A stretch of 64,000 nt of DNA from Curvularia clavata (GCA_023920165.1 CP089274.1:4092001-4156000); one strand, 5' to 3'; shown: positions 2,767 through 64,000, counted from the first letter of the stretch. Numbers and translations are program-made. Notes: generated from the letters alone by a model not told the origin.

Positions 2767-3575
2767 GTTTCTTTTTTTTCGGTTCGTGAATTCTTAGATT
2801 AGGGTGGGCAGGCAGGGTTCAGGAAAATCTGGTGACGGGGAATTACAGGAAAGGTCCTGATTTCTGGCAGTGGCTACTATATCTTAGGATTCTTGTAATA
2901 TTTTCGGTGTATATATTAGTCCAGTTATTCGGAGGTGTGCTGGGCATTATTTCAGTTCAAATCTTGAGTTTTTTTGTCGTGTCCAAGTGTGCTGAAGTTG
3001 AGAATGTGCAACAGGTGTTAAAGATGTTTATCCAAAAGTCAAGAATCGATGATGTAGTCGAAAATCAAAATTATTTTCCATGTCTATTTTCCACTCGTTT
3101 GCGGTTGTTAGTTGATAAGAATTTCGTTGGAACATGGCATGCAGTCCCCAGCCTATGCAGCGCCTGGAAGGGAGAGATTAAAAAACATAAGTTCTCATAT
3201 GAGTTCCCGAGACGGCTTGTTACTGAGCAGACTTCTGATCAATGCGTGGGGCGAACCATTCGTGGTGTTGTTCACAGCTTGGCTTGGCGTTGGTGGATCC
3301 CAGGAACCCGCAGACTAGCGTACTAGCGTCGGCGATACGCTTTTCCGTCTACTCGGCTCGCGCACGCTAAGCGGAACCTCGAAAATTCACAGTTGGTCGA
3401 GATTTCTTTCCTCCGACAGCCGTACGATTAACTAACCACCAGGTCCGCCATCGAGGTACGTTAACCATTCCCGCACCGCAACGAGCGCAATCGCACAATC
3501 CGATTGTCAACGCGACAGCGACACGGTGAAACACAGTTGGGCAAGGGCTGATTTGAGAACAGACAATCCGACACA

Positions 3576-4442
3576 ATGGCGATTAAGCACAACCAGCAGA
3601 TCCAGAAGAACCACTTCCACAAGGACTGGTATGTTTAAAATGTCGAGAGAAACTGGAGCTTGCGCATCGTACTGACTTCGAAACAGGCAACGCTACGTCC
3701 GCGTGCACTTCGACCAGGTAATTCCCCTCTCACTTCGCTGAGAGTAGTGGCGCCTGTGTACAAATTTCTGACATTGCATATAGCCTGGCAAGAAGAAGTC
3801 CAGACGCAATGCCCGTATTGCCAAGGCTGCGAAGGTCGCCCCCAGGCCCGTTGACAAGCTGAGGCCTGTCGTCCGCTGCCCAAGTAATTATCCTCCGCCC
3901 ATCGCGCTATCGCAGTTCGCTAACAGTAGCAGCCATCAAGTACAACCGCCGTGTCCGCCCCGGCCGTGGTTTCTCTCTTGCTGAGTTGAAGGGTGAATAA
4001 ATTCTTCCAGCTGTAGTAAACACTGCTAACACCAGCAGCTGCCGGTATCCCCCGCAAGTTCGCTCGCACCATCGGTATCTCCGTCGACCCTCGCCGCCAG
4101 AACCTCTCCGAGGAGGGCCTCAAGGCCAACGTCGAGCGTCTCCAGGAGTACAGGAAGCGCCTCATTCTCTTCCCCCGCCGCAACGGCAAGACCAAGAGCG
4201 GTGACGCTTCCGCCGAGGAGGTCAAGGCTGCCAAGAGCGGTGACAACCTCGTCAAGAACACCGCCTCCATCTTCCCCATCAAGAACGTCGTTGAGCTTGA
4301 GGAGGGCCCCATCAGCAACTACGAGGCCACCGAGAACGCCTACAGGAAGCTCCGTGACTCCCGCGCCGAGGCTCGTCACGTCGGTGCCCGTGAGAAGCGC
4401 GCCAAGGCTAAGGCTGAGGAGGCTGAGTCCAAGAAGAAATAA
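3576..4442 (+). CDS. RPL13: 60S ribosomal protein L13 (eL13), multi-exon
   Basis: Spliced by hand: [39 protein letters not shown]...[48 protein letters not shown]...ESKKK*. Four short GT-AG introns. Missed by the ORF track. Confidence 0.96.
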
Positions 4443-5099
4443 ACTGATCGCTGAAGCGACTGTGTGGTTCTTTGCGATGGCTTACGACACTATAAAAGTC
4501 AGGGTTACGATACGGCAATGGGTATTCCCAGTGTGGGCAATCCCAGCATGGGCGGCGTCACGGTTAGGTCTGTCTAAAATTGGCAGCATGTGAATGATAC
4601 CTAGTTTTCTAAATGCAAGCCGTGCCTCCCATACATGATGATATTCCAACACGAGGTAATCGTTGTCACGTTGATCGTAATATCTTTGCATTGTACAAAC
4701 GAGATAGATTTCGTACTTAAGACTTTAGAGCGCAGCCGGCTTCTACGCACCGCAGTGTCGACTGTTGCAAAAGACTAATATTCTTAGTCTCGAGAAGCTT
4801 TGGTCTGTCTCATTCTCCCTATCGTATGGTCATAACTGTTAGAAATAGGGAAAGCAGGGTCGCTTACCACTGGAGAAAGAGACATCTACGTCATTAACTT
4901 CTGTGTCAAGGGTGAGAAATGAAGAATCCCCTTTGATCCTCCTGAAGACGTGTGCAAGCAGCTGATCGTCACCCAAGGTCTACTTAAAAAAGTTGATTTT
5001 TTTTTCCCCCAAGTGTATATTTTCTTCTATCATCTAATTTCGTCCCGAATCGTTAACATCGTATACATCGCTCATAAGCAACCCCGTCTCGCATACATG

Positions 5100-8040: not shown

Positions 8041-8182
8041 GTTAAGATTTTGAGTCCATAGGCAGACGCAACGATCTGTGGAGATAGACTAGTCAGTATA
8101 TCAGGGAAAAGGACTATAACAGACACTTGAGGAAATCTGGTCGCAAGCATTGGAGAGCACGGTGTTCAGGTCCTTGCAACAA

Positions 8183-8220
8183 CCCCGCTTTTTTTTACAT
8201 TCACTGTACCCGTGGCGGGG
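8183..8220. promoter_or_regulatory. Pair of putative CreA/Mig1 (SYGGRG) carbon-catabolite repression sites upstream of the alcR-like gene
   Basis: CCCCGC at 8183-8188 and GCGGGG at 8215-8220, oppositely oriented, 140-180 bp upstream of the ATG. Confidence 0.4.
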
Positions 8221-11200
8221 GATTATCTGCGAGGATCCCAAGACTATGGATTATTCTAAAACGTCACACCCGAGCCTTAGCTTCACAAATGGTCAATAAG
8301 GATCTTGATTTCCGCTACGTGCCGGTTTAGGTGCGTGGTGTCAGCAGCTTGGACCCAATCTGAAGCGCACTTTTTACTCCGAAATACGCAAAAACAACGA
8401 TATATAAAAATTGGGCACAGGCGCTGGGCTGTGACAAATTGCACGTGAAGTGCATTGGCGTTCGGTCGTTTTCCCCTTTGAATAGCGCCTTCTCGGCCGG
8501 TTTGACCAAATCTTCGATCCCCAGCTGAAGCGAATGGCTTCCGCATCACTATTTCTATCACCCTTAGCCACATAAATGTCCATGAATAATAATTGCATCA
8601 TTTCTGCCGCAATGCCGCGCCTTACTAACGCTAAAAGAGTGCCATGGTGGTTGCAAGCATAGTAGATCCAGTGCTTTTCCAGGTGCCGGTGGCATTATCT
8701 GTGTGGCAACAAGGCTTGCTGCATCTTACTTCTATCGACACAGCCACTAGAAGCCAAGCGGCTTTGCCCAAAACGAAGCGCTCGCCGACGACCTTTCTGT
8801 AATGAGCCATTTGACGTGAACATCGATCAATATGCCTGCGGACCGTTTCTGGCTATAGGGTAGATGTTGGGGATAGCGTTGGTTATGCCCGGCTCTGATA
8901 CCGGGATACCTTGACCACGGAAACTCGGATGTGAGCTTTGATTCTCGAACACCTGTACATGCGATGGCTGGTCCGACATGCTTTGCGCGAAACGCATAAC
9001 GTGTTGTCAGTGAGGAGCTTTGTCGAAAGGCAAGTGTCAGTGATCTATCTGGTCTGTGGATAGATACTAAATAGGACTTATATGCTTACGGAGATACGTA
9101 AAAGACTCCGGACTACTACTCATCGGTCTTCTCCGGGAGCATGGACTGTTGAGACGCGCGCTCTGATCAGTGCCAGGGGGCTTATTCCTACGCCTCTCGT
9201 ACAAACGATCAAGTCACCACGTCAGGAAAGTATATACGACCGACGGTCCTTTACGGGCTCTCTTTCAGAAGATCGTCGGTGGTTGTACGGTTAGTCGAAT
9301 GTTCCAGGTTCTGCAGCATCTCCACACATGGCTCTAACGAGGCACCAATCATTCCAAACAGAGCATGCACAATCGTTGAAACCCCCCCTTCAAACGCATT
9401 GTTCCTTATATCTTGGAGGCTTTGAATATGGCCGAGGGCTGCATATGGAGTCATTGCTTCTGTCAGATGTTGGCTATGCATTGTCATGACACACTCCGCA
9501 CCGCGTTTCCGGCCCAGATAAGACTTGGGAGAGCGATCGCCGAATAAAGACATCGGAGTTGGGGAATATGTCAAATCCAGGGGCCGACTCAAGACCCTCG
9601 TCATCTCATTCGAGAAGGTATCTGCAAGCCCAGCCGTGTAAGCCAGTCGCAGGTAGCGAGGCACGGCTTGACTATTCGGATTGATTGCCCCGTCTATGCC
9701 TCAGGGATATCAATGTCTCTTGACTATAGACAGTTTAGTTCCATCTCTTCCGATTTGTCTGTCGCCTGAGATTGCCTTCATCCGACATGCGTCGCGGCCT
9801 CGTCTACGATGGTTTCGGCACTTGAAATGGCTTGAAACCCGTTGTCGAGGGCCAACGACACGTGATTCTCTGTGCTGTCAGTCCCCGGTTGTGTTGTCAA
9901 AGGTGTTTTGACCATCTTTTGCGACGGGTACAACGGTGCTCCGGCATACCGTCCGCATTCTGTGCGCATCCAACTTCAGTCGCTGGTGATGTATCTCGGT
10001 TGTGTCTTTGCCTACGCAGGTCCTGATGTTTCTCATTTATAAGGTGAGCGGTTGTTCATGGTGAGGGCGTATTCTTTTCTGTGGACAATAGATTGGCAGG
10101 TCATTCTCTTCCAAGTAAACATCAAGGGAACACCTGCGAATTTAATCATAACGCTGCAAGTCGGTCCGCCATTCTGTTTTGGTCGGTGCCGCAGCATCGA
10201 GAGATCGAGATCACAAAACCTGATGCAAATTTCCGCCCCAGTGTTTCGCAAGGGGCTTGTTCTTAAAAAGTACGACTTGTATTCTTTTCCTCGCAAGAGT
10301 GGTCGTGGGTCGACGGACCCACTTCCGCCTAGCTGTAAGCGCGCGATCCTGCGGAAGCGCCTGCGGAAGCGCGCCGAAACCGTCTTGGAAACGCAGCCGT
10401 AAGTATCGGTAACCAGCCCGATACCGTAAACAAAAAGCTCGAACATCGCGGCTTTTTCCTGTGTTCATCGTTTCTTGTTTTTTTGGTGAGCAGAAAACCT
10501 GGAAGCTGTGAACCACTATGGGGGCGCTCGCATTGCTCATGGCTGACGAAACAGGACTTCATCTCGTCTCGTCTGAAGCACAAGACACTTCTTTGGCACC
10601 AGCTGTGGTTTTCTCTCGGGGTTGCGCTTTCGCGATTTCTCAAATGCTAATGAATCGGGTATTCCTAATGATGGCAGTCTAGACTTGGCTAGGTGTACCA
10701 CGGATATCTCTGTCGTCAGCTTCAAATGCCGATTGCCAGCAGTAGGTCAGGCTCGGTCTGATTTCAAGCGAAGGGGATGTCTCAACCCCGTAAAAAGTAT
10801 GGACTATTTTTTACTTTTTGGATGGGTGGAGTTAAGTCAAAAGATATGAGAGTGTTCTCGAGCAACATGTCTCAGTCTGACGAGAGGAAAGAAGGTCGTT
10901 CGGCATTCCTTCTCCATTTTGTTTCCCTATCACTAAGCGCTCCACGCTGACGTTTTAACCAGAGCACTCACCGTATTGGTAATCATACTTTAGCCACCCC
11001 GCGAATATGAAATCCATGAATATGATATGCTCGCATATATATAGAACCTGGCTGTAGGTTTGTTGATGAGATCCCAGCTGCAACGCTATACCGGCTGTGA
11101 CACGTTATGCTACCCACACCACCCGCACGGCTCTGCTTCGTCTAGAGATGTAGTCGAATAGGCGCCACAAAAACGATGCGATCTTAGCCGGTTCAGGTAT

Positions 11201-49441: not shown

Positions 49442-50953
49442 CTACAACTTCGCAAACACCGTCGGCACCACCCCACCCATCTCGACCAATGTACTCTTAT
49501 TCCTCACCCAAGCCTCCAGCCCCTTTTTACCATTCTCCACGCCCACACCACTCTGTTTCCAACCGCCAACACTCATCTCCGCGGGACTCTCACCCCAGGT
49601 GTTAATCCACGTGATGCCGGCCTCCAGCTGCGCAATCACCTTGTGCGCAGTGTTGATATCCTTTGTGAAGATACCGGCAGCCAGGCCGAGCGGTGTGGCG
49701 TTAGCCCGTTGAACGACTTCTTCGATGGACTTGTAGGACAGAATGGACATGACGGGGCCGAAGATTTCTTCTTGGACGATTTTCATGTCGTCGGTACAGT
49801 CTGTGAAGACGGTGGGTTGGACCCAGTAGCCGGCTTGGTAGGATTTGTCAGAGTGGGAGGAGAGCCAGGATGGGGTGGAGGGACCGCCGCAGAGGAGGCG
49901 GGCTTTGTCGGTTTCGATGCCGTGTTTGATGTAAGATAGTACTTTGTCGTAGTGCGGCTTGGAGACAAGAGGGCCAAAGTTGGTGTTCGGGTTGTAGAGG
50001 TCTCCGGGTCGGATGTATTGTATCTTTTCCAGTAGGCGCTTCTCAAATTCAGGCTTCATGCCTTCGGGGACGAAGACGCGGGTGCCATTGGTGCATACTT
50101 GGCCGGTGGAGAAGAAGTTGGCGAGCATGGCGCCGTCGACGGCTTGGTCGACATCGGCATCGGGGAGAATGATGCATGGGGACTTGCCGCCCAGCTCCAT
50201 TGTCACGTATTTCATCTCGCCCGCTGCGCTGCCGGCTACCTTCTTGCCCGTTGACACTTGTCCAGTGAAGCTGACTTTGGCGATACCAGAGTGCTTGGTA
50301 AGGTATGCGCCTACATCGCCGCCGCCCTGGACTACGTTGAAAACACCCGGAGGCACACCGGCCTCTGTGTAGATATCTGCAAGGACAGTTGAGTGGAGAG
50401 GTGTGAACTCTGAAGGCTTGTAGACCATGCAGTTTCCGGCAGCCAGGCAGGGCGCTGATTTCCAAAGAGCGATCTGGATAGGGTAGTTCCACGCTCCGAT
50501 ACCTGCGCAGACACCTAGCGGGCTCTTGGTGGTGTATACCCACGCATCTGGGCGCAACGGAGCCGTCTCGCCATTCATTCCGCCTCCTCCGACCAGGTTT
50601 GCGAAGAATTCCAAGACATCGGCGCCCGTAACTACATCGACTGTGGAAGTCTCGGAAAAGGGCTTGCCTGTATCGCTTGTCTCGATTCTTGCGAGCTCAT
50701 CGTTTCGCGCGCGAAGCAGAGCGGCGGCTCGCTGGAGGATGCGGGCGCGTTCAATGGGGGGCGTGGCGGACCATGATGGAAAGGCCTTGTGGGCGGAGGC
50801 TATGGCCGCATCGATGCCAGCAGGTGTAGTCGCGTGGATGTTTGCGAGAGGCTGGGCGGTCGCGGGATTAATGGTTTGGAAAGTAGAAGCAGAAGAGGAG
50901 GATTGGATCTTGCCGTCGTAGTAGGCGGAGCGAGGCGCATACGGGAGAGACAT
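49442..50953 (-). CDS. betB: Betaine aldehyde dehydrogenase (BetB-type)
   Basis: [61 protein letters not shown]. Lies next to choline oxidase. Ends in AKL. Confidence 0.92.
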
Positions 50954-51996
50954 GATTACGGGCAATGAATGAAGTATGAGATAAGGAAGCAGTAGTGGTC
51001 ACGGCGGAGGTTCACTGGAGATTATGGCTCAAGCACTAATTCTCAACTGCAGAAAGTCAGCCGCGCCCTGGTTGAGTGATGTAACACGCAGCGACGGGGT
51101 TTGATGCCAACATTCGTATATATTATGCAGAGACAGCGCCGGAGAGCTGGCATGCAGCGGTTGCACTCTGTCTACCTGTTTGAGGCTAGCAGTCAATGAC
51201 TCGGGACGTCGCAAACAGCAGGATAAGCTGGCAGCGTTACGTATGCCACGGAATGCTGGACAGGGAGTATTGTCGGTTTTCAGCGGGATGGCGTTACGTC
51301 TGGGAGCTCAGAGTTTCTCGCAGATGGGCAAAAAACGTCTTGCCTGGTGGTTGCGCCACTCACCGCCCTCGGATCAGGCAAAGTGCGGCGTAGTGTGCAG
51401 GGATTAGGCTGTCGGAACCTGCAGCCTGCAGCGGGGTACGCTAGCCCAAATGCGGCCATGGCGTCATCGGACACTTTTACGACGACTTTTTTCTTTCCAC
51501 TATTCTGCCCTATCGTCTGGCGTATAATGGGCACAAAGCATACGGAACAAGCTTTTCACGATGCCCTACAGCAATCTATTAAAGGAATTTCTCGCCTTTC
51601 ATTCGCTAGCGACGAGCATCCCTTTATCCAGCGCAATCTTGTCGTGAACCGTTACAGACTCGTGCATACGTAGCTGAAGACTGTTGACCAAAGCACGTGC
51701 ACAGTTCCGGCCCTATCGTAAACGGCCCTTTTTAGTACGCCCTTATCTTGGAAGGCAAACTACATATCCTGCAGCCGGTCAAAAGACACACCACCCAGCC
51801 TCTCTTCACGACTCACTTTGCTGGCCGGCTTGCTGCCGACCAACCGATTGCGATCCCCGGTCTGTGCTTACTACACTGGCTCTTCGCGCGATCGTCCGCA
51901 TATATATAAACTCGCTGGAACGTGGAAAAACGTCTATCCAGTCCAAGTATCCCCCTCGCCACCTTTTCCATCTTCACCCTCTACCCACACGCGACA

Positions 51997-53679
51997 ATGG
52001 CTTTTGAGACTGTGACGTCCATCCCTCAGGATGCCCAATACGACTTTGTCATTGTCGGAGGTGGCACAGCTGGCTGTGTCATTGCCTCGCGCCTTACTGA
52101 ATACCTCCCCAACAAGAAAGTCCTCCTAGTCGAGGCTGGCCCAAGCGACTTCATGGATGACCGTGTCCTGCTCCTCAAAGACTGGCTCAACCTGCTCGGA
52201 GGAGAGCTCGACTACGACTACGGTACCACCGAACAGCCCAATGGCAACTCACACATCCGACACTCACGTGCAAAGGTCCTTGGTGGTTGCTCTTCACACA
52301 ACACTCTTATCTCTTTCAGGCCGTTTGAGTACGACTGCAAGCGATGGGAGGCTCAAGGCTGCAAGGGCTGGAGCTTCAAGACTTTTATGCGTGTGCTTGA
52401 CAACCTCCGCAACACCGTCCAGCCCGTGCACGAGAGACACCGAAACCAGCTTTGCCTCGACTGGGTCGAGTCGTGCTCCACCGCCATGAACATTCCCGTG
52501 ATCCACGACTTCAACCATGAGATCAAGACCAAGGGTGCTCTCAAGCCTTCCGTCGGCTTCTTCTCCGTTTCATACAACCCTGATGACGGCCGCCGAAGCA
52601 GCGCTAGTGTAGCGTACATTCATCCCATTCTCCGTGGCGAGGAGACTCGCGACAACCTGACTGTGCTCACCAACGCATGGGTTAGCAAGATCAATGTGTC
52701 AGGTAACAAGGTCACTGGTGTCAACCTCACCCTCCAGAGCGGCGAAAAGCGCACCATCAACCCCAAATGCGAAACCATTCTCTGTGCTGGTGCCGTCGAC
52801 ACCCCACGACTGATGCTCTTGTCTGGTATTGGCCCCAAGCAACAACTCTCCGACCTCGGCATCCCCGTTATCAAGGATTTGCCTGGTGTAGGTGAGAACT
52901 TGCTTGATCACCCAGAGAGTATCATCCTCTGGGAGCTCAACAAGCCCGTTCCTGCAAATCAGACCACCCAAGATTCAGATGCCGGTATCTTCCTCCGACG
53001 AGAGGTTCCCAACGCAGCTGGTGATGATGGTGACATTGTTGACATTATGATGCACTGCTACCAAATTCCTTTCTGCCTGAACACTGCTCGGTAAGCGACA
53101 AAGGCTCATTTTGAAAATTGCAAACTCTAACATATGCGCAGTTTGGGTTATGACTCTCCTATTGATGCCTTCTGCATGACCCCCAACATTCCCCGCCCCC
53201 GCTCCCGCGGTCGCCTCTACCTCACCTCCGCTGACCCCAACGTCAAGCCCGCCCTTGACTTTCGCTACTTCACTGACCCCGAAGGCTATGACGCCGCAAC
53301 CATTGTTGCCGGTCTCAAGGCCGCACGAGAAGTCGCCAAGCAAGCCCCATTCTCCAACTGGATCAAGCGTGAGGTCGCCCCTGGCCCCCACATCACCTCT
53401 GATGAGGACCTTTCCGAGTACGGCCGCCGCGTTGCTCATACCGTCTACCACCCTGCCGGTACCACCAAGATGGGCGACGTCACCAAGGACGAAAAGGCCG
53501 TCGTCGACGCTGAACTCAAGGTCAGCGGCCTCAAGGGCATGCGTATTGCCGACGCTGGTGTTTTCCCAGAAATGCCTACTATCAACCCCATGTTGACTGT
53601 CCTTGGCATCGGCGAGCGTGCTGCTGAGCTGATTGCCCAGGAATGGGGCTGGAAGGGTCTGGAGAAGGAGAAGTTGTAA
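51997..53679 (+). CDS. codA: Choline oxidase (GMC oxidoreductase)
   Basis: GGGTAG FAD motif, RAKVLGGCSSHN (His at the flavinylation position, as in Arthrobacter choline oxidase), TVYHPAGT, TINPMLT. Intron 53091-53141. Confidence 0.9.
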
Positions 53680-53976
53680 ATGTGGGTGTGGAGACGAAAA
53701 AGAAGATTTGAGTATTTGATGGGAGCATTTGTGACGATTATATGATGATGATGCTGCTAAGTTTCTTTTCATGTTGTTTATATATATATTGATGGCTGGT
53801 ATCGAACGATCTATCCAATTTGACAATACTTACCCCTTGAGGGATTCATGATTTGCAAAAGAAATACTTGGAATGTAGTGTGTTCTGGGGTCGCGGTGAT
53901 GTTTTTGTTGATGTATTTTTGACCTTGCGGTTTCATCACATCCAGTAAGAAGTTAAATAATCTGGGTTATTAACTA

Positions 53977-54060
53977 ACGTCCGTCCCTATGTGCCGGGAC
54001 GCACGATGTGACGGGACACCGTCTCGTTCGGACGCTCGTACTGCCTGTTACATTCTCAAA
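53977..54060 (+). repeat. Left terminal inverted repeat of the large element
   Basis: Ungapped match to the reverse complement of 63351-63434; preceded by TA at 53975-53976. Confidence 0.88.
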
Positions 54061-55305
54061 TATAGGTAAGTAAGGTGCGCGTCTATTCTGTAACTCTTAT
54101 TCTCTAAGCACATTGGCCTCTGATGCCAAAAATCGCGTTGTTGCCTATACTGTCGCTCGTTCTATTAGTGCCTGCGACCCACTCTCCTCTATTAAACCCC
54201 TGCTTGTTGGCGATAGTATATTAGTAAGGAGTTTAGTGGGCTAAGGGAGAAACTAAGATGTTAGAGTTTAAGACTGTAGCTTTAGAAGTTTAATATAAGG
54301 TGAAGTGTATACATTCCGGCTGTTTCTCCGCGCTGGCGACAACATCGTCAAAACGCGTGCAGCCGGCCGTGCGACTTTAGCGGCATTTGGCAGCGGTAGC
54401 GTGCTGAGATATCTGCGAGGGGTTGCGTGTTGTGTAGCTTGGAGCTGCGGCTCTCACTCATTGCCTGACCTTAGACAGCTCTTATTCCCAGGCCGTATAG
54501 ACAGCCGCCCCCGTTGCATAGTAGAGCCAGGCGAGACGTTACAACGATAATCTTTATAGATTAGTTAGCTGTAATTGCTAGCATCTTACCTACATATACA
54601 CTCTTCTAATATGAGTTTGTAAGGCAAATACTGCCTTAGCGCAAATAGCGAGTTGAGGCAGTGTAGGACGCTGGGCGCTTGATGCAACTAGCAGCATCTT
54701 CAGCCTGGTTGTGTGTTCTGCCTCACTAGGATGCTTTCTCTGTCTTATTGTAAAGATGCCATTCTACTCCCGCTAACGTTCTACTCTCACTCATCTACTA
54801 CAGAATTTGTTCATGCCTCTAGTTCTTTAGACTAAAGTCCGAGCTGCAAGCGCCATGCGGCTCCTCCTGTACGGGGCTGCGCTCCGTGGAGCAATCGCTT
54901 TGGTATACAAGAGATTGTATTCGATAGGGAGCCAAGCTCCCAAGTTGCATAGCTATCCATATACAATACTAGTTGCCTAAGCAACAATCGGGTCGATCTA
55001 GTCCGGCGTTTAAGCGCCGTTTAGACAGTGTAAGCACCCGGAATCTGTAAGACGACCCGAGATCCCGTCGAGGAGTAAGACCAAAGGGCACCAGCCCGTT
55101 ACAGCTTTGTGTTGCTGCGTGCGTAGACCGAAATGACATTCCGCTCGATCTACTCAAGGCAGCTTCGCCTCAGGTCTGTGTAGATGCGATTATGACACAG
55201 GGCTGATCGAAATCGGTTTCCGTATCATGCACTTTGCTTGTTCTCGTCGCACGGTTCTCCAACAAGGCGCTTATCCTAGCTGGAACATATTTCTAAAACA
55301 ACTTA

Positions 55306-57166
55306 ACGTGACGGATAAGCGAGTCGGTCAGGCAAGCGAGTCGGTCACCTCACCAACTTTGCGCACCTCTATAAGCGTGTAGCTCCACCACCATATAGCT
55401 ATCTTAATATGTATTAATATAGGAAGTTAAGTAGTATCTACAGTATCCTTCTTACATGTACGTGAGTTATGGCCAGTCTCTCTACATTTACTACAGCGCG
55501 CCAAAGCCTGGCGGCTCACACCTGATCGCTCCCCTCCTTGACGCTCTTCGTAAGCAATCTGCTGATCAGCCTCGCGTTGAGCGAGTAGATCCTCTCCAGC
55601 TCCCTTTGTAAGGACTCCTCGCTTCTGTATTCGCTTCTTTTTACGCTGTCTACGCTTTGTGGCTGTATCATTAGCCTTTTCAAGGCTGGCGATTCGATCG
55701 CGCATTAGCTCAGCTGAGAGTATCATTATCTCTGCCCCCTTCTTAAGCTGGCCAATCGCCGCAATAATTGAAGCTGGTGATGAGCTTTTGTGCTGTCGAA
55801 CGCGATTACTTATTAATGTTGATTGAGCTTCAAGCTCGCGTACGTTGCTCGGCGTACAGGCCTGCCAGAGAGCTTCTGCGAGAGCTGGTAGAGCTGGCGT
55901 AGTTGGCGTACATAGCTGCACGTCAAGCTTTGATAGAACAGTATCTGGCTGGAGAGGAACAAGGCCTGCACCTCGAAAAGCTGAGCATATATTGGCTGAC
56001 GTGAATGATTGATCAAAGGCTGCCTTAAATGCTGGCAGAAACTCGAGCTTGGTGATGTGGTTGATGTGGTTGCGTATTAGGCTCTCTATCTCACGGCTAT
56101 ACGCGCGCTTCAATGGCGAGAAGCAGCCAACGTCAAGAGGCTGAAGAAGGTGAGACGAGTGAGGCGGCATACAGAGCGTGTAGATATTGTTCTCCTTGCA
56201 GAGCTCTTGGAACTCAAGTGACTGGTGGCTCTCATGGCCGTCAAGAATAAGCAGCCGGCGTGACCCAACAACCTTGCCATCTGTATGCTTGACAAAGTGC
56301 TTCAGCCACTCAACTCCTAGCTCATTGGTCGTCCAGCCATTATCGCTAACTGCGATAGCCCAGTTGCGTGGGATTTCTGCCTCCTCATACCAGGCAGATA
56401 GGTGATACTTGCCAGTAAAGATTAGAAACAGTGGGATAGACCAGCCAGCTGCATTAATCCCAGCGATAAATGTTACCCACTCTCGGCCACCTGGCTGGAC
56501 GGCCTTTGGCCGGCCTCTTCTCTCTGACGCTGTAATGATAAGCTGAGTAGTAATCTTGCCCATTGAGAAGCCAGCTTCGTCAAAGTTGTAGACGTCCTCG
56601 TCACAGATGCCGTACTTGGCCTTTGTCTGCTCCACAAGCTCAAACCAGTTCTTGATTAAGACTGGATCTTCACATAGAGCCCTCTGCCTATCGTACGCCC
56701 GACTAAAACGCGTCGTAAGACTGTCTGTACGCTTGACAAAGTTAGCTGGCCACTTCTGTCCAACCTGGCCAGCGCCGCGCGCAGCTAGCAGCTTATTAGC
56801 CATATCGCGCACAGCAGCGTAGGTAGGCGCAAATTCACGTAAGTCAAGATCAAGTATATGATTAGCTATCACATCTTCCTCTAGCTTAGTAAGTTTCTTT
56901 GAGTTGGGCTGGCAATCGCGTCGCACGCGCTTCCCAGCGCGTCGGTCAATTAGTGTTAATTTTGGAATATTAAAGGCTATAGCAGCGCGCCGGGTACTCT
57001 AGATTTGGTTTCTATTTAAAGAAGAGAGAGCAAGCTGAATATCTACTTCGTGAGAAATTGACTGAGAAGCGTGGCTTAGAGGCATTGTACGCAAAGGTGT
57101 GGTAGGTGATCAAAGTTGGTGGGGTGACCGACTCGCTTGCCTGACCGACTCGCTTATCCGTCACGT
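55306..57166 (-). mobile_element. Fot1/Pot2-like pogo DNA transposon (1861 bp), full length, nested in the large element
   Basis: 56-bp TIRs (55/56 identical) starting ACGTGACGGATAAGCGAGTCGGTCAGGCAAGCGAGTCGGTCACC, each with two AAGCGAGTCGGTCA direct repeats. TA target duplication at 55304-55305 and 57167-57168. Confidence 0.96.
55427..57085 (-). pseudogene. Pogo/Fot1 transposase (HTH, DDE_1, CCHC knuckle) with a premature TAG at codon 29
   Basis: ATG 57085 MPLSHASQ...NRNQI*STRRAA continues in frame into ORF 55427..56926. Catalytic motifs YNFDEAGF, LILDGHESH, QPLDVGCF; C-terminal CSKCRETGHNSRTC. Confidence 0.9.
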
Positions 57167-58183
57167 TAGTTAGTCATCCTGTTTAAGCTAGTTAGTTGTA
57201 AACTGTAGCTATCAACGACAATAGTAAAAAACAAAGCAGGAGATAGAGGGAAAGTGTAGGTGAAAGAGAGAGCGAAGCGTAGGATAGTTCACACAAGTAA
57301 GTTTAAGGTGCTAAACTCTAGGCTACATAGCCATCTATATACCTAGGAGCTGATAGATAGTAAAGGCTGATCGTCCGATCGGTGATTAGGGCAGGCAACA
57401 GAGAAGCACCAAGACCATAGACGAGGATAAGGGAGCAAAAGGCTATTATAGCCTAGTATATAACCAAGCTTACTCCTGCTTTAGTGCACGTCCCAGCTTC
57501 TAATTGGTTGCTTACATGAGTGTAAGACGGTATATAGCTGCATCTAGAGGTTTAAAGATATGCTGCGGAGAACAGTTCCGCGACTGATAATGATTAGGCA
57601 AGCACTTTTAGACGAGGCAGAGTTATTGATTGTTACCGACGCCATGTCCGGAATAGCTGCATATGACTGAGAGTCGTGGAGACTGTGAGTTGAATCTGCA
57701 GCCTATTTGCGTACCTAGCTAATGAGCAGCCAATGATCAAGACGGTGTTGCCGCCCCCACGACTTGCCTGCGTCTGCAGAGGCATCTGCTGACCGTCAAT
57801 TCGACGGCACAGCTCAGCCCGCCCGCTTAAAGCTAACAACATGCATGCAGTAGGGGCTGTGCGAGCTACCAAGCAGGAAGCTAGAAGTTGAGAGCCCAAG
57901 GGGCTGAGGGCTTGTATTACGAGCAGGGCAAGGTTCAAAGTCCTGCCATATAGCTCATCTTGATGAACATACCCAGTACCCAAACCACAATCAGCTTCCG
58001 ATACAGCTATTGTGCAAATTCGAGATGCAGCGCAAGATACGACCATAGCTAAGGCGAAAGATTCTATACTATCTAGACAAACCGTAGCGCCGCCATAAAA
58101 CGCCGCATTCCCGCTATTCATCCCTCATCCGACCCACCGCGTTCTCGTGCTCTCGAGCACATCGCGACTGATATAGTTGCACC

Positions 58184-61100
58184 ATGATTCCGGTTCCATC
58201 AAAAGTGGACAACTCAGAATATACTGTTGGATGGATTGCCGCATTACCACATGAAAGGGCCGCAGCTCAAGCAATGCTAGACCAGAAGCATGCACCGCCC
58301 CAGCAGAAACATGTAAATGACCACAACATCTACAGCCTGGGCTCCATCACCAGTCCGAACGGAGAACATAATGTGGTTATCGCCAGCCTCCCGTTCGGCC
58401 GATACGGAACGACCTCCGCCGCTACGGTAGCGATGCAGATGCTCTCTAGCTTTCCCAATATCAAGTTCGGACTGATGGTTGGGATAGGGGGTGGCATCCC
58501 AAGCGAGGACAATGACATCCGGCTAGGCGATGTTGTGGTGAGCAAACCAGAGGGTACATTTGGAGGCGTCAGGCAGTATAATGTCGGAAAAGCTACTACC
58601 CACGGTTTCGAAGAGCGTGGCCAGCTAAACTCCCCACCACAAGTTCTTCTCAACGCTATGGGGGCGCTTGTAAGCAATCATGAAATGGAAGAGAGCGTCA
58701 TACCTAGTCTTTTAGAAGCTATGCAAAAGCAGTATCCGAATATGCGCAGCCAAGCGAAAGGGCCGGGATATGTCTACCAGGGTGCAAAATACGATCGGCT
58801 ATTCGAAACGGACTATACGCATGATAGTAGCAAGAGAGACTGTGACGAGTGCGACCCCGCGAAGGTGGTGAAGCGCCAAGAAAGATACGATCAAAATCCA
58901 TGGATTCACTATGGCACTATCGCTTCCGGCGACGAGGTTATCAAAGATGCTCGAAAACGGGATTTGCTGTCCAAAAACTGCCTCTGTTTCGAAACGGAAG
59001 CTGCTGGGTTAATGAATAATTTCCCGTGTCTTGTCATCCGTGGAATTTGCGACTATTCTGATAGTCATAAGAATGATCAGTGGCAAAAGTATGCGGCAGC
59101 TACGGCGGCTGCATATACCAAAGAGCTTCTTCAGATTACCGATGTTGCCGAAATCAAAAGCACACCTTGTGCACGCGATGTTATGGATGAGTGTTAGTTA
59201 TAATTCTCTATCTATGTTACAATTTAGCATTGTCATTATAGTTTAAAATGTTGACAATAGCGGCACTTCGATCATAAATTTTGAAGCTTGTGCTAATTTA
59301 AGACGCAGTAAAAGAAATCAAATCTATCGCAAAAGACATTATCCAAGATCAAAAGCGACATGATATTTTCGGATGGCTAACTACACTAAATCCATCTTCT
59401 CGGCATCTCGAGAGTCAAAAGAGGCGTGTTGAAGGTACAGGTAGATGGATGCTTGAGGACCCGAAGTTTGTCCAGTGGTCCTCGACAACGGCAAAATGTA
59501 GGACATTATGCTGTTACGGGGCTGCAGGGGCTGGCAAGACAGTTATATCGTGAGTAAAGAGAGAGTTGACTATTCATTCTGCTAGCTAACAGTCTGGAAC
59601 AGCTCCCTTGTGATTGATCAATTGAAAGAGCGCTTGGCAGCCACGAAGTCAAGCACAGGGCTCGCATACGTGTACTGCGATTACCGTGATCAGAAGGAAC
59701 AATCCATAGAAAACATCCTTGGCGCAGTCTTGAAGCAACTACTGGGGCTTCTACCTGAAATTCCTGAGATTGTTTTGAAAGTATACGACGAGTGGGCTAC
59801 TCATCAGAAACCACTAAGCTCGGCAGATGCGGTGGATCTCCTGCGCGCAACCTGTGCGCAGTTCAGTAGGACCTACGTTTGTCTAGACGCGCTTGATGAA
59901 TTCGGCGATATACGAGGTCTTTTAACCAAGTTGCGCGACAGTCCTTCCTCAATGCAAATATTCTTGACTGGTCGTCAACATATCCAGAATACTGTCCAGG
60001 AGTATTTCAACGAAGAGAACATCATTCCTATCGAAGCTTGCGAAAACGACATTCGACTATTCTGTGAACATGAAATTGGTGGAACTAATGATCTTGAGCC
60101 CGATGCTATGGACGAGAAACTTAGAAAGGCTACTTTGAGAAGAGTCACTGAATCTGCTGAAGGAGTGTTAGTATAGCCACATCCAGCATAACTCCCCGAT
60201 ACTAACAACAAATCATAACTAGCTTTCTACTACCTACCTTGCAAATCCGCGCCGTTCTCCAAGCTACAACAATACGTGATCGTTACAAAGCTCTCGAGAC
60301 GTTGCCGTCAAATCTTGACGAGGCCTTCAACGGAACTATGAGTAGAATTGAGCAGCAGCCCAGCGCTCTATTCAACAAAGCGGCAAGTATTCTTGCTTGG
60401 ATCCATCTAGCAGAACGTCCATTGACTGTCAATGAGCTGTTATGCTCCCTTTCGATCAAGGACGGTGACGAATATCTTGACCCGGACGGCATACCTATCA
60501 GAAAATCTCTACTGAACTGCTGTCAAGGGCTAGCTCTGATTGACGAAGAGACGTCAACTGTCCGTTTAGTCCACTATTCTCTCGAGGAATATCTCACCCG
60601 TCAAGACAGGATATTTGGCTACACCAAACTAGTATGGCAAAGCAGGATCGCACGTACATGTCTTACATTTCTCCAGTTTCCGTCAAGGAGAGCTGAAGCC
60701 ACAATAATGGAGAACGGCGAGACCATTACGCTTTTGTTCTATGCTGCTACACAATGGGGCCACCATCTTCGAAGGGCTGGTGATTTGGGAGATGCTCTAT
60801 TGGAACTTGCTATAGAATATCTCTACCGCGGATTAGCCGATAATCCCAAACACTTGCTCCTCCTGTACGAAACGATGTGTTCATATAGACCTTGGACGAA
60901 CAAACCCAATGATGTCTTGCGTACTCATATCGCAGCTTTCTTTGGCATTTCGGGAACCATGGCTCATCTGCTTTCAACAGATCAGACGAATCTAGACTCC
61001 AAGGACAAGGAAGGTCAGACGCCGCTATCGTGGGCTGCGAGGTGCGGACATAAGGTGGTGGTAAAGCTACTACTCGATACTAGCAAGGTGGACGTCAACT

Positions 61101-62014
61101 CGAAGAACAAGGAAGGTTACACGCCGCTATCGTGGGCTGCGAGGTGCGGATATGAGGCGGTTGTGAAGCTGCTGCTCGATACTAGCAAGGTGGAAATCGA
61201 CTATAAGAACAAGCACGGTCAGACGCCGCTATCGTTGGCTGCGGAGAGAGGACATGAGGCGGTTGTGAAGCTGCTGCTCGATACTAGCAAGGTGGAAATC
61301 GACTATAAGAACAAGCACGGTGAGACGCCGCTATCGTTGGCTGCGGAGAGTGGACATGAGACGGTCGTGAAGCTGCTACTCGATACTAACAAGGTGGACG
61401 TCAACTCCAAGGACGAGGAAGGTTACATACCGCTATCGTTGGCTGCGGAGAATGGACATGAGACGGTCGTGAAGCTGCTACTCGATACTAACAAGGTGGA
61501 CGTCAACTCCAAGGACGAGGAAGGTTACATACCGCTATCGTGGGCTGCGAAGAGGGGACATGAGGCGGTGGTAAAGCTACTACTCGATACTAGCAAGGTG
61601 GACGTTAACTATAAGAACGATTACGGTCAGACGCCGCTATCGTTGGCTGCGGAGAGAGGACATGAGACGGTCGTGAAGCTGCTACTCGATACTAGCAAGA
61701 TAGACGTCAACTCCAAGGACAAGAAAGGCCAGACGCCACTATTGTTGGCTGCGAAGATGGGACACGAGACAGTCATAAAGCTACTACTTGGTGCTAGCAA
61801 GGTGGACGTTAACTCTAAGGACAATTGTTATGGTCGGACACCATTATCATGGGCTGCGCAGAGGGGACACAAGGCGGTAGTAAGGCTGCTACTTAATACT
61901 GGCAAGGTGGACGTCAACTCTAAGGATTGGGATGGTCAGACGCCGCTATCGTTGGCTGCGTGGCGCAGACACGAGGCGGTCGTGAAGCTGCTTCAGTCTT
62001 CTATAGTCACGTAG
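58184..62014 (+). CDS. Fungal NLR: PNP_UDP (nucleoside phosphorylase) - NACHT - ankyrin repeats
   Basis: PNP motifs YTVGWIAALPHE, GLMVGIGGG, CFETEAAG, RGICDYSD. Introns 59193-59308, 59550-59602 and 60167-60222 give an open frame through GTGRW, P-loop CYGAAGAGKTVIS, Walker B CLDALDE, LVHYSLEEYL and 10 ankyrin repeats. Confidence 0.93.
60995..62000 (+). repeat. Ten tandem ~102-bp (34-aa) highly conserved ankyrin repeats
   Basis: Unit consensus [DN][SY]K[DN]xxG[QYER][TI]PLS[WL]AAxxGHE[AT]VVKLLLDT[SN]KV[DE][VI]; near-identical DNA between neighbouring units. Confidence 0.95.
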
Positions 62015-62381
62015 CATTTAACACTTCGCAAGCCGCCATCTCGCTCACTACCTTACTGCTAAAAGTCTCTTGTAGATCTATAGTCCCTTAAATAATTGTG
62101 TACTTTTGAATCCAATGTAGCTTGATCATCAACATCGAGATCATGTTAAAGCGTTTTTTATCTCGGTAGCGACGACATTGTTGTAAGTTCCTTATGATAG
62201 TTACGGAAAACACGGCAACGCTTAGTTTTCTAGAACCTCGAAAGCAAAATAGTCTCCATGGCATAGACTCCTGGTCTTCCTGTACAGCGGCTTTCCGTTT
62301 GCGATGTTAACATAGCTGTATGCTGTGCTGTATTACTGTAACAGGTTAACTATTCAGTTGTTTAGTTAGCGTAGAGAGAAT

Positions 62382-62652
62382 TGTAACGGCACGAGCAAGA
62401 CTAGTCGAATCGGTTCCTGTGGGAAGTGTCACTTAAATGCACATGGAGGTGCGTGGAACAATAGAAACACCTTAGGTTTGGTAGACACTCATAGGCCTGG
62501 TACGAAAGAATATTAAAAATCTACTAAACATCTATGGAAGGTACTAGGTACTTCTACCTTAGTACGGGTCTTCATCGGATCTGTCCCGGTTCTTGGTCGG
62601 ATCTCGATGAGCCGTCTTATCTGGGGTAGGTCTTGGTCAATGTATGGTTACA
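62382..62652. mobile_element. Probable solo LTR (271 bp)
   Basis: Begins TGTAAC and ends GTTACA (6-bp inverted ends, TG...CA), size typical of fungal LTRs. No target-site duplication visible. Confidence 0.4.
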
Positions 62653-63350
62653 ATTAGTATATTTAGTAGCATAGCAGATTTATCTTAGAGTTGGAGTATG
62701 TTATTATACTAAAGTTCTTAGTAGCTTTGCATAATAGGTATTATACGCACTAGAGATTGGGAACTTAAGACTAAACTATGATTACTTGCAGCGCCGGGAA
62801 TAACAGCAGCCCGAAATATCACTCTCAGCGCCACAACCCCAGCCATAGTGCGCAGTAAAAGTTGCAGACATCTCAGCGCGCTAACTACTTCTGCCGGACG
62901 TTGCTTAGGACGCACGACCGATTGCATGCTTTTCGACGATCTAAACTTCCACGTGCCGGGATGCACACTGCTCACTTTAAGTCGACTCTTTGAGTGTACA
63001 GTCTTGATCTTTGCTATCTTAGCTTTCTTTCTAGCCTACCGAGCTATGTTGAAGTTTATGCTGTTGCAAAAAAAAACAAGAATTTATTAGAGGAAAGTTG
63101 ATGAATAGTACCAACGGAACAAGCGATAGTATGGTTAACAACCCGCTTTTTAGCGTTAGAGAGTAATATACTAGAAGAGTTAGAGGTATAGAATAGTGTA
63201 AGCAATTGAGTGTGTAAGAAGTATTGTGTATTCTCTTGTATATGATGCTGAGTACAAGTTTAAATACAGTGGCATTAGTCAGTGGCTAACCACGTGACTA
63301 TACATGGTACTTCTGGGCTTACAGATAGATATATATTGCGTTTATTTATT

Positions 63351-63434
63351 TTTGAGTACGTTACACGTAGCCTGAGCATCCGGAAGAAAAGGTATCCTGT
63401 TACACCGTGCGTCCCGGCACGAAGGGACGGACGT
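63351..63434 (-). repeat. Right terminal inverted repeat of the large element
   Basis: Ungapped match to 53977-54060; followed by TA at 63435-63436. Confidence 0.88.
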
Positions 63435-64000
63435 TACTTATTCAGTGAATGTATCCACCTTTAACACTGCATGCACTAAAAGGTATTCAAACTTGCTCGT
63501 TGAGTTTGCTTCTGCTCTACCTTGTGTCACAATGTGGTTTAATCCTCCATGCGCTACGCAAAGTATGTGTAAAGCTAGTGCTTTTTAGTAGACTGCGTGT
63601 GGATAAGATTTTGGCGCGGCTATCCCGTGGTCGTGACCGTGGCTGTAGTAGTGGCCAAAGATGTTCGAAATGACAGTTTGGGGCCAATAGTATTGCACGA
63701 TTGTTGTAACCCGGCTTCCGTGATGATGCTGACAGAATGCGTATGTCGCTTTGCTTTTTACGGCGAAGAGTGAATGTACATGCACGTGATTGCCGCGACT
63801 GCGAAGATGCTGCTACGAAAGATGGTGTTGTTGTGGCTGCAACTATGTTCACCAGTTGACTAGAAATGACTGAGACATCTCCACCTGAACATGTGGCTTG
63901 AGTCGGTTGCCTAAAGGCAAACATTGCTGTACGTCGCACACTGCGCGATTCCAAGGAGTTAAGGCATTATTAAAGATTGACTTTGTACCCTTCACAGAGC

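What the first reader, a model, noticed from the sequence alone, without database searches (positions are those of the whole stretch)
53977..63434. 9.5-kb TIR-bounded DNA element carrying an intact NLR immune-receptor gene as cargo
Seen: about 84-bp imperfect inverted repeats 9458 bp apart (38/44 identical at the tips), both starting ACGT and both flanked by TA. Between them lie a complete PNP_UDP-NACHT-ANK gene, a nested pogo element with different TIRs, a probable solo LTR and TpA-rich decayed DNA. Known: TA duplication with ACGT-starting TIRs is the Fot1/pogo signature, but those elements are about 1.9 kb and carry only a transposase. Large fungal cargo elements usually described are Starships (tyrosine recombinase) or hAT types. 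Inference: this is a non-autonomous Pack-type DNA transposon moving non-self-recognition genes, mobilised in trans, and possibly an undescribed family.
Basis: partly seen in the sequence, partly recalled or inferred. Interest (0 to 1): 0.92.

Follow-up and report, generated by a model that had tools for sequence, protein, structure and literature searches.

The report
Old transposon ends bracket NLR gene
Two decayed, matching transposon ends in a Pleosporales fungus enclose an intact immune-receptor-like (NLR) gene, but the block sits at the same site in related lineages and shows no sign of having moved as a unit.

Summary
The two ends at 53977 and 63434 are real inverted repeats: 38/44 and 71/93 identical, TA on both sides, 9458 bp apart. 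The inverted similarity runs on for about 440 nt. Between them lie a 1861-bp pogo/Fot1 copy with different TIRs and an apparently intact four-exon PNP_UDP-NACHT-ANK gene of 1201 aa. The "solo LTR" was not confirmed.

No transposase belongs to the outer ends. Both arms carry a RIP-like signature, and related sequence occurs elsewhere in the assembly. The NLR stretch lies at single-copy depth.

The left junction is occupied in two other diverged lineages (about 2% and 6% different). Only the nested pogo is missing there, so only the pogo is demonstrably young. No empty site and no second loaded copy were seen.

A metagenome relative (85% nt) has the NLR without either arm, in a different context. 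By its N-terminal domain the NLR nests among Eurotiomycete sequences, although the host is a Pleosporales fungus.

Best reading (about 0.45): an old, fixed, now immobile Tc1/pogo-type non-autonomous element that acquired an NLR. Two separate insertions remain a serious rival. Gene capture by TIR transposons is already known in Dothideomycetes.

The parts
53975..53976 (.). TA directly outside the left tip (putative target-site duplication)
53977..54069 (+). Left terminal inverted repeat; tip ACGTCCGTCCCT; GGAYRC sub-repeat at TIR positions 21, 38 and 54
53977..54420 (+). Left arm: stretch with extended inverted similarity to the right arm (302/423 identical), RIP-like composition
54421..55303 (.). 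Inner left arm: non-coding DNA with related sequence elsewhere in the assembly (summed depth 2.8-5.4 times the flank in X2); no Pfam hit in its frames
55306..57166 (-). Nested pogo/Fot1-type transposon, 1861 bp, own 65-nt TIRs, TA duplication at 55304-05 and 57167-68, 523-aa DDE_1 + HTH_Tnp_Tc5 frame at 55427-56998 (-); absent from this site in X6 and X3
57169..58183 (.). Single-copy spacer upstream of the NLR; no similarity to the upstream DNA of the NLR homologues in L001 or L002; its 163-aa minus-strand frame has no Pfam or Atlas hit
58184..62014 (+). NLR gene, model of 4 exons (58184-59192, 59309-59549, 59603-60166, 60223-62014), 1201 aa: PNP_UDP - NACHT (NPHP3_N, Walker A) - WHD - ankyrin repeats (102-nt tandem units at 60894-61992)
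62015..62335 (+). 3' flank of the NLR still alignable to metagenome locus L002 (homology ends near 62335)
62336..62859 (.). Repeat-derived DNA between the gene block and the right arm, holding a short very high-depth repeat at about 62410-62612; not shown to be an LTR
62860..63434 (-). Right arm: inverted counterpart of the left arm, with an extra AT-rich block of about 145 nt at 63197-63341; RIP-like
63342..63434 (-). Right terminal inverted repeat
63435..63436 (.). TA directly outside the right tip

Best explanation
[quoted passage not shown] Its interior came to hold a complete NLR gene, that is, gene acquisition inside a TIR element (transduplication). It lies 297 nt after the stop of the GMC-oxidoreductase frame, at the edge of a stretch of core genes. 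It was already there in the common ancestor of at least three lineages.

Since then its repeated arms have been hit by RIP-like C-to-T/G-to-A mutation and by indels. The TIRs have drifted to 76% identity. Only in the window's lineage did a young pogo copy jump into it. The NLR itself has stayed open and single-copy.

Shown:
- the homologous inverted arms, the TA flanks and the intact gene model;
- the absence of a transposase belonging to the outer ends;
- the occupied junction in relatives;
- the recent pogo insertion.

Inferred:
- that the two arms are the two ends of ONE element;
- that the family is pogo-like;
- that the element is now immobile.

Open: whether the NLR arrived with the element (loaded transposition) or was copied into a resident element in situ and never moved. 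I give the two about even odds.
For: - Arms are homologous, inverted and tips-outward. The first 12 and the next 15 conserved nt are identical, and TA lies outside both.
- No inner copy of the TIR was found anywhere between the tips. This was tested by blastn with word 7, by a RIP-degenerate pattern, and by a transition-tolerant local alignment checked against 30 shuffles for each test.
- The inner parts of the arms (54421-55303 and 62336-62859) are unlike each other. Yet the depth bins covering most of each lie above flank depth in X2. That fits a left and a right half of one asymmetric element.
- No Pfam family at E<=0.01 was found in the 17 frames of the arms, spacer and right flank that I scanned.
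- The tip ACGT plus TA is shared with the nested, transposase-bearing pogo copy.
- The left junction is bridged by a 16-kb X6 contig (50000-54403; 88 differences, 21 gaps) and by a 703-nt X3 contig (53723-54425). Flank contigs of X6 and X4 run 23-27 nt into the right TIR.
- The pogo is precisely absent (joint 55302>57166) in X6 and X3.
- The NLR bins have depth 96 against 90 in the flanks in X2.
- Precedent: TIR transposons with sequestered ORFs in Pleosporales and other Dothideomycetes (passages of PMC3538342; abstract of PMC6710886; passages of PMC6737239).
Against: - No full-length reference copy of the family was seen. So it is not shown that an L-type and an R-type arm ever form the two ends of one element.
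- 440 nt of inverted similarity is long for Fot1/pogo elements (tens of nt, recalled). It would also arise if both arms were the same end of two copies.
- A 2-nt TA match has at least a 1-in-16 chance, and it is present at every insertion of this superfamily. It therefore cannot tell one insertion event from two.
- There is no empty site, no second loaded copy and no autonomous partner.
- In metagenome locus L002 the NLR homologue has neither arm within 2462 nt upstream or 1075 nt downstream.
- In L001 a TA-flanked tip of this or a related family lies 0.7 kb upstream of the NLR homologue with its interior pointing away from the gene. This shows that such ends can sit next to this gene without enclosing it.
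- X2 is probably the window's own source or strain and is not independent.
Confidence: 0.45

Rival explanations
1. Two separate insertions. Two copies of the same low-copy TIR family landed on either side of a resident NLR in opposite orientation, and both later lost their inner ends. The 'element' is then a chance bracket and the NLR was never cargo.
For: - The arms share about 440 nt of inverted similarity. That is what two copies of the same end would show.
- TA flanks accompany every insertion of this superfamily, so they do not link the two ends.
- L001 shows a family-like tip beside the NLR homologue in a non-enclosing orientation.
- L002 shows the NLR without arms.
- The region attracts transposons: a nested pogo and a high-depth repeat lie in it.
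Against: - It needs two of only a few related copies within 9.5 kb (arm depth is 2-5 times the flank), both tips outward, and loss of both inner ends with no detectable remnant.
- The similarity of the arms stops at 54416/62864, although the depth bins covering most of the DNA inward of both stay above flank depth. Two truncated copies of one end do not predict this.
Confidence: 0.25
2. Local rearrangement. One resident element end was duplicated in inverted orientation, for example by aberrant or reversed-ends transposition or by inverted-duplication repair. The bracket around the NLR was made in situ without any loaded transposition.
For: - The long inverted similarity and the lack of inner ends.
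- The upstream context of the NLR differs in all three lineages sampled. Homology breaks 2-6 nt (window) and 71 nt (L001 against L002) before the ATG, which points to repeated rearrangement at this gene.
Against: - Each arm has contigs at least 85% alike laid on it, while the arms are only 71% alike to each other. This suggests two older sequence types rather than a local copy.
- No other trace of duplication of flanking DNA was found in the window.
Confidence: 0.15
3. One reading: a currently or recently active Pack-type non-autonomous transposon that shuttles NLR genes, mobilised in trans by an autonomous pogo-like partner.
For: Intact tips, TA flanks and an intact cargo gene. An abundant, recently active pogo family in the same genome shares the ACGT tip.
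Against: - The TIRs are 76% alike with RIP-type changes, and there is a 17-nt deletion in the X6 copy.
- The block is fixed at the same site in lineages about 2% and 6% diverged.
- The NLR is single-copy by depth, and no joint between the flanks is listed.
- The nested pogo's TIRs differ from the outer ones beyond the first four bases.
- The tip pattern was not found in the metagenome collection.
Confidence: 0.07

Closest known systems
Tc1/Mariner-superfamily transduplicating repeat of Pyrenophora tritici-repentis (Manning et al. 2013, PMC3538342; passages read)
   Same: A Pleosporales host, a class II element of the TA-targeting superfamily, and a non-transposase ORF sequestered between the TIRs.
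   Different: That family has 46 members, 31 nearly identical, so amplification is shown, and it carries its own coding regions. Here there is one copy, decayed ends, no transposase, and a complete 3.8-kb multi-exon NLR.
hAT elements that captured histone H3 (P. tritici-repentis, Pseudocercospora fijiensis; PMC3538342 passages, PMC6710886 abstract)
   Same: Capture of a whole cellular gene between TIRs in Dothideomycetes, with RIP shaping the outcome.
   Different: A different superfamily (hAT). Those have tens to hundreds of copies and an autonomous form carrying the transposase. No 8-bp duplication is present here.
ToxhAT (McDonald et al. 2019, PMC6737239; passages read)
   Same: A TIR-bounded cargo block of about 10-14 kb in Pleosporales, with TIRs of similar length (74 bp there) and interruption by nested Tc1-mariner or LTR insertions.
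   Different: ToxhAT has 92%-identical TIRs, an associated hAT-like transposase gene, sits in a large transposon-rich island, and is shared between species by horizontal transfer. This block sits beside core genes, has 76% TIRs, and no transfer of the block is shown.
Starships (tyrosine-recombinase giant elements; search listings only; NLR cargo recalled, not read)
   Same: Fungal mobile elements reported to carry accessory genes, including NLR-type genes.
   Different: No DUF3435-type 'captain' was found among the frames scanned. The block is 9.5 kb, has TIRs with TA flanks, and is not a Starship by any tested feature.
Fot1/pogo elements, represented here by the nested copy at 55306-57166
   Same: TA duplication, an ACGT tip, and TIRs of tens of nt with internal sub-repeats.
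   Different: About 1.9 kb with a DDE_1 transposase. The outer ends share only the first four bases with it and have no transposase of their own.
Pack-MULE / Pack-type elements of plants (recalled, not read here)
   Same: Non-autonomous TIR elements with host DNA between the ends.
   Different: They usually carry gene fragments, are multi-copy, and show target-site duplications typical of their own superfamily. Here a whole gene sits in a single copy.

Membership tests
Tc1/mariner-pogo (Fot1/pogo) superfamily, non-autonomous derivative | TA target-site duplication | tested here: met
   TA at 53975-76 and 63435-36. No 3-, 8- or 9-nt duplication can be read in the flanks. Weak on its own, because two bases match by chance at least 1 time in 16.
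Tc1/mariner-pogo (Fot1/pogo) superfamily, non-autonomous derivative | Terminal inverted repeats | tested here: met
   71/93 identical, E 3e-16. The tip pattern is unique to the two ends.
Tc1/mariner-pogo (Fot1/pogo) superfamily, non-autonomous derivative | An autonomous partner with the same TIRs and a DDE transposase | not testable with these tools
   No whole genome is held. The only transposase in the window belongs to the nested copy, which has different TIRs. The tip pattern gave 0 hits in the metagenome collection.
Tc1/mariner-pogo (Fot1/pogo) superfamily, non-autonomous derivative | Evidence of transposition: empty site or insertion polymorphism | tested here: not met
   The left junction is bridged in X6 and X3. 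Right-flank contigs of X6 and X4 end 23-27 nt inside the TIR. No flank-to-flank joint is among the 15 of 54 joints listed.
Pack-type / transduplicating TIR element | Host gene or gene fragment between the TIRs | tested here: met
   A complete NLR gene model at 58184-62014.
Pack-type / transduplicating TIR element | Several copies carrying the same captured DNA | tested here: not met
   The NLR bins have depth 96 against flank 90 in X2 and 115 against 116 in X6. Depth of contigs is only a rough guide.
Starship | Tyrosine-recombinase 'captain' (DUF3435) at one end; size of tens of kb or more | tested here: not met
   No such family among the frames scanned: 11 of 24 frames of at least 80 aa in 53-64 kb, 17 shorter or repeated frames, and 25 of 76 frames of at least 130 aa in 1-54 kb. 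The block is 9.5 kb.
hAT / ToxhAT-like | 8-bp target-site duplication and a hAT transposase or dimerisation domain | tested here: not met
   The flanks ATTAACTA and TACTTATT differ. No hAT Pfam hit.
Fungal NLR (NACHT class) | N-terminal effector-type domain + NACHT NTPase with Walker A + C-terminal repeats | tested here: met
   PNP_UDP_1, NPHP3_N, GPIID_WHD and 9 ankyrin stretches. Walker A GAAGAGKT is present, and the model is colinear with 1192 of the 1201 aa of P0012.
   3 candidate pairs with a 5-bp duplication, against about 2 expected by my own estimate. The best is crossed by homology to L002. High depth is confined to about 62.41-62.61 kb.

The most novel reading that the evidence does not exclude
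A small TA-targeting, pogo/Tc1-type long-TIR element captured a whole, still functional NLR gene whose nearest relatives are Eurotiomycete. It then carried the gene as a loaded unit into a core-genome intergenic site of a Pleosporaceae ancestor. That would be a DDE-transposon route, independent of Starships, by which fungal immune-receptor genes change locus and perhaps host.
Probability: 0.2. Interest if true: 0.7.

Novelty: new variant of a known kind. Interest (0 to 1): 0.4.

Why it matters
Fungal NLR repertoires are patchy and turn over fast, and how the genes change place is poorly known. Starships are the usual suspects. A whole NLR inside a small cut-and-paste element would be a second, simpler vehicle. 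It would extend the gene capture known for hAT and Tc1/Mariner elements in Dothideomycetes to immune receptors.

As it stands, the locus is one fixed, decayed instance. It is a lead for a genome-wide survey of this TIR family, not evidence that NLRs are being shuttled.

Tried and rejected
- Whole-genome search: no genome is held for this window.
- Earlier findings of the scan: nothing by place or by sequence.
- TIR-tip pattern in the metagenome collection: 0 matches.
- tblastn of the nested pogo transposase against the window: only its own locus, with no decayed transposase in the arms.
- Pfam on 17 frames of the arms, spacer and right flank: only chance-level rows, E 0.06-0.15.
- ESM Atlas on the right-flank 149-aa frame and on the 163-aa frame upstream of the NLR: no usable hit. 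The right neighbour therefore remains unidentified, and I do not use a 'convergent genes' argument.
- Search for inner partner TIRs: nothing above shuffles. The one exception is a 14-nt inverted copy of the TIR core motif at 62953-62966, about 0.03 by my own rough estimate.
- Solo LTR: rejected.
- Arm against L001 upstream beyond the first 26 nt: not above 200 shuffles. Arms against the flanks of L002 and L004: not above shuffles.
- Parts of the stretch without listed contig cover in X3 and X4 are not used as evidence of absence.
- A search for the predicted empty-site sequence was left out, because it would have required typing a joined sequence.
- Full-text searches found no title or abstract describing an NLR inside a Tc1/pogo-type element (listings only). 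That is not proof of absence.


Full report
**1. The observation**

Read from the outside in, the two ends begin TA|ACGTCCGTCCCT. They agree at 12/12, 26/28, 38/44, 65/84 and 71/93 positions.

- A 28-nt tip pattern with two free positions occurs only at 53977 (+) and 63434 (-) in the 64-kb window. None is expected from 100 shuffles.
- blastn gives E 3e-16 for the 93-nt pair.
- Both ends carry a GGAYRC motif at TIR positions 21, 38 and 54. This resembles the doubled internal motif in the TIRs of the nested pogo.
- Flanks of 3, 8 or 9 nt do not match. TA is the only possible duplication.

**2.

After an extra AT-rich block of about 145 nt in the right arm (63197-63341), the inverted similarity resumes. 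L 54083-54416 matches R 63196-62864 at 63% over 344 nt, E 7e-28.

Over the whole arms, 302 of 423 aligned positions are identical. There are 81 transitions and 40 transversions.

Both arms have RIP-like dinucleotide indices: TA/AT 1.45-1.48 and (CA+TG)/(AC+GT) 0.81-0.82. The NLR (0.87 and 1.15) and the nested pogo (1.11 and 1.28) do not.

Inward of 54416 and 62864 the two sides are unrelated to each other.

**3. What lies between the ends**

*(a) A nested pogo.* It spans 55306-57166 (1861 bp). It has TA duplications, 65-nt TIRs that are 95% alike and start ACGTGACGG, and a 523-aa open frame with DDE_1 and HTH_Tnp_Tc5.

*(b) An NLR gene.* tblastn of four full-length relatives is colinear across four frames. 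The three gaps are canonical fungal introns of the form GT(G/T)AGT ... CTAAC/CTAAT ... AG. The spliced model is 3606 nt, or 1201 aa, with one terminal stop and the Walker A motif GAAGAGKT. Its domains are PNP_UDP_1, NPHP3_N, GPIID_WHD and nine ankyrin stretches. The ankyrin region is a 102-nt tandem array whose units are 65-89% alike.

*(c) No transposase for the outer ends.* tblastn of the pogo protein finds only its own locus. The 17 frames I scanned in the arms, spacer and right flank give no Pfam family at E<=0.01.

*(d) No solo LTR.* TG..CA pairs with a 5-nt duplication occur three times, against about two expected by my own estimate. The best pair (62179-62866) is crossed by homology to a relative. 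What does exist is a short stretch at about 62.41-62.61 kb with very high contig depth.

**4. Setting**

The first 53.9 kb of the window holds ordinary core genes: MCM10, RNase H2 subunit B, a sterol methyltransferase, lunapark, an aldo-keto reductase, an aldehyde dehydrogenase and a GMC oxidoreductase. I scanned 25 of the 76 frames of at least 130 aa.

The GMC_oxred_C frame ends at 53679, which is 297 nt before the left tip. The 566 nt to the right of the block could not be assigned.

The aldehyde dehydrogenase is 91% identical to a Bipolaris victoriae protein and 90% to a Stemphylium lycopersici protein. The rest of the list is also Pleosporales. The host is therefore a Pleosporales fungus, probably in the Pleosporaceae.

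**5. Relatives: is there an empty site?**

No whole genome is held. I therefore searched public runs with 53701-63700, and laid four runs on 50000-64000 at 85% likeness or better.

- **X2** (share 0.89) is virtually identical: 1 difference in 4148 nt. It may be the source strain, so it is not independent.
- **X6**, another coded organism, has a 16,094-nt contig covering 50000-54403 (88 differences, 21 gaps). This bridges the left junction by 427 nt.
  - A 4191-nt X6 contig runs 55122-55302, jumps to 57166 (a joint that skips 1863 nt), and continues through the NLR to 61111 (139 differences in 3796 nt).
  - Its right-flank contig ends at 63412, which is 23 nt inside the TIR.
- **X3 and X4**, low-depth runs under a third label, give a 703-nt contig across the left junction (53723-54425, 45 differences). 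They also give the same pogo-less joint (X3) and a right-flank contig ending at 63408 (X4).

By the tool's 31-letter rule, only the left junction counts as bridged. None of the 15 joints listed (of 54 in all) links the two flanks.

The outer block is therefore present at the same site in lineages about 2% and about 6% diverged. The nested pogo is a later insertion, specific to the window's lineage. In X6 the left TIR has lost a further 17 nt at 53989.

**6. Copy number, roughly**

In X2 the flanks have summed word depth 90. The other stretches compare as follows:

| Stretch | Depth in X2 |
|---|---|
| NLR bins, 57472-60740 | 96-104 |
| Left arm | 169, 249, 486 |
| Right arm | 280, 353 |
| 62142-62608 | 3745 |
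| Pogo | 3000-8400 |

The tool warns that depth is not a copy number. I read this only as follows. Sequences at least 85% like each arm exist elsewhere in that assembly, and the NLR has no such second copy.

Several listed joints are what other, rearranged family copies would produce. Examples are 54172/63074 and 54315/63374 on opposite strands, and 63032-63045 > 63335-63387. I could not read those contigs.

**7. The NLR in other contexts**

A protein-guided scan of metagenome contigs found three close relatives.

- **L002** (7342 nt) aligns to the window only from 58178, which is 6 nt before the ATG, to about 62335, which is 320 nt past the stop. Identity is 85%. Its 2462 nt upstream hold an ankyrin-repeat frame. 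Its 1075 nt downstream show no likeness to the arms or the TIR. If L002 had the window's structure without the pogo, both arms would fall within this contig. Here, then, the NLR homologue exists without the TIRs, in another neighbourhood.
- **L001 and L003** overlap at 100% over 1040 nt and are 81-86% like the window. L001 shares only 71 nt of upstream sequence with L002, and none beyond 2 nt with the window.
- **L001 also holds TAACATCCATCCCTATGT at 419-436 (-).** This is two G>A changes from TA plus tip, and none of 200 shuffles matches it. The interior of that element points away from the NLR, whose ATG lies 0.7 kb further on. Only about 26 nt are alike (19 identical, 5 transitions). The rest is 33% GC and RIP-like. 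An end of this or a related family can therefore sit beside this gene without enclosing it.

**8. The NLR tree**

Among the 120 listed proteins of 598-2000 aa that match exon 1, the best are Helicocarpus griseus and Endocarpon pusillum (74%) and Aspergillus section Flavi (69-72%). Rows named for Pleosporales reach only 44-50%.

Over the full model, identity is 60.6% to the Endocarpon protein and 56% to Aspergillus nomiae.

I built a quick IQ-TREE of the exon-1 domain from 42 hand-picked rows out of the 120, plus the window. The other 78 rows were left out. The tree puts the window in a starred clade (SH-aLRT 96) of 19 rows: 16 Eurotiomycetes, one Orbiliomycete, one unnamed row and the window.

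This disagrees with the species tree. That fits either horizontal acquisition or sorting of old paralogues. It covers one domain with a short search in a family rife with paralogy, so I treat it as a hint only.

**9. Weighing the readings**

*For one element.* The tips are intact, face outward and are of one family. No inner ends were found despite three kinds of search. The arms become unlike each other inward, while the depth bins covering most of that DNA stay above flank depth. Two independent insertions of a low-copy family within 9.5 kb are improbable a priori.

*Against, or unresolved.* The 440-nt inverted similarity is also what two copies of the same end would give. TA cannot link the two ends. 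No reference copy, empty site, second loaded copy or autonomous partner was seen. L001 and L002 show the gene beside, or without, such ends.

*My odds.* I put about 0.45 on one old element with an acquired NLR. Within that, I am undecided whether the NLR came with the element or was copied into it in place. I put 0.25 on two insertions, 0.15 on a local rearrangement, and 0.07 on an element that is still shuttling NLRs.

**10. Comparison with what is known**

Capture of cellular genes between the TIRs of class II elements is already described in Dothideomycetes.

- A Tc1/Mariner-superfamily repeat with a sequestered ORF (46 members) and hAT elements with histone H3, both in Pyrenophora tritici-repentis (PMC3538342, passages).
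- hAT with histone H3 amplified to hundreds of copies in Pseudocercospora fijiensis (PMC6710886, abstract).
- The 14.3-kb ToxhAT, with 74-nt TIRs about 92% identical (PMC6737239, passages).

The PMC3538342 and PMC6710886 captures rest on many copies. I did not read on what evidence ToxhAT's transfer between species rests. This locus lacks either kind of evidence.

What would be new, if the one-element reading holds, is the cargo (a whole multi-exon NLR), the long imperfect ends, and the position beside core genes.

Four full-text searches showed no title or abstract describing an NLR inside a Tc1/pogo-type element (listings only). That Starships carry NLR genes is recalled, not read here.

**11. 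Verdict**

This is a real and unusual structure with a sound observation. The claim of a mobile NLR carrier is not supported by the tests that could be run. Interest 0.4, as a new variant of a known kind if the best reading holds.

Noticed in passing
window 55306-57166: The nested pogo copy is precisely absent (joint 55302>57166) from the orthologous site in runs X6 and X3. Its sequence has 30-90 times the flank depth in X2. This marks a recently active, abundant family in this lineage. Loose ends show a second pogo subfamily whose tip also starts TA|ACGT.
   Followed up: partly
window 60894-61992; L002 4491-5987: The ankyrin region is a 102-nt (34-codon) tandem array whose units are 65-89% alike at the DNA level. 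The last-exon frame of the L002 homologue is 104 aa shorter, about three units. This points to repeat-number variation between lineages.
   Followed up: partly
L001 419-436 (-): A TA-flanked 16-nt tip, two G>A changes from the window's TIR tip (0 of 200 shuffles match). It lies 0.7 kb upstream of the NLR homologue with its interior facing away from the gene. The DNA behind it is 33% GC and RIP-like.
   Followed up: yes
window 62953-62966 (+): An inverted copy (13/14) of the TIR core motif GTGCCGGGAYGCAC lies about 470 nt inside the right arm. It may be a subterminal binding-site repeat or chance, about 0.03 by my own rough estimate.
   Followed up: partly
window about 62410-62612: A short stretch with very high contig depth: 3745 in its bin against 90 in the flank, and up to about 9000 at single positions in X2. 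It is a fragment of some high-copy repeat. Its kind was not determined.
   Followed up: partly
window 49442-53679: A betaine-aldehyde-dehydrogenase-like gene (-) and a GMC oxidoreductase (+; GMC_oxred_N and GMC_oxred_C in two frames, so probably one intron) sit head to head. This looks like a choline-to-betaine pair.
   Followed up: no
L002 1-1632 (+): A 543-aa open-ended frame with ankyrin repeats lies upstream of the NLR homologue, on the same strand. It may be the tail of a neighbouring NLR, which would make this an NLR cluster.
   Followed up: no
window 57312-57316 and 54927-57311: In X6, 62 other letters replace 3 nt at 57312-57316. One low-depth X4 contig joins 54927 to 57311 with 4 letters between. 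These are further indel turnover inside the block in relatives.
   Followed up: no
window 1303-2766 (+): A 487-aa frame rich in leucine-rich repeats lies at the far left of the window. It is unrelated to the finding.
   Followed up: no
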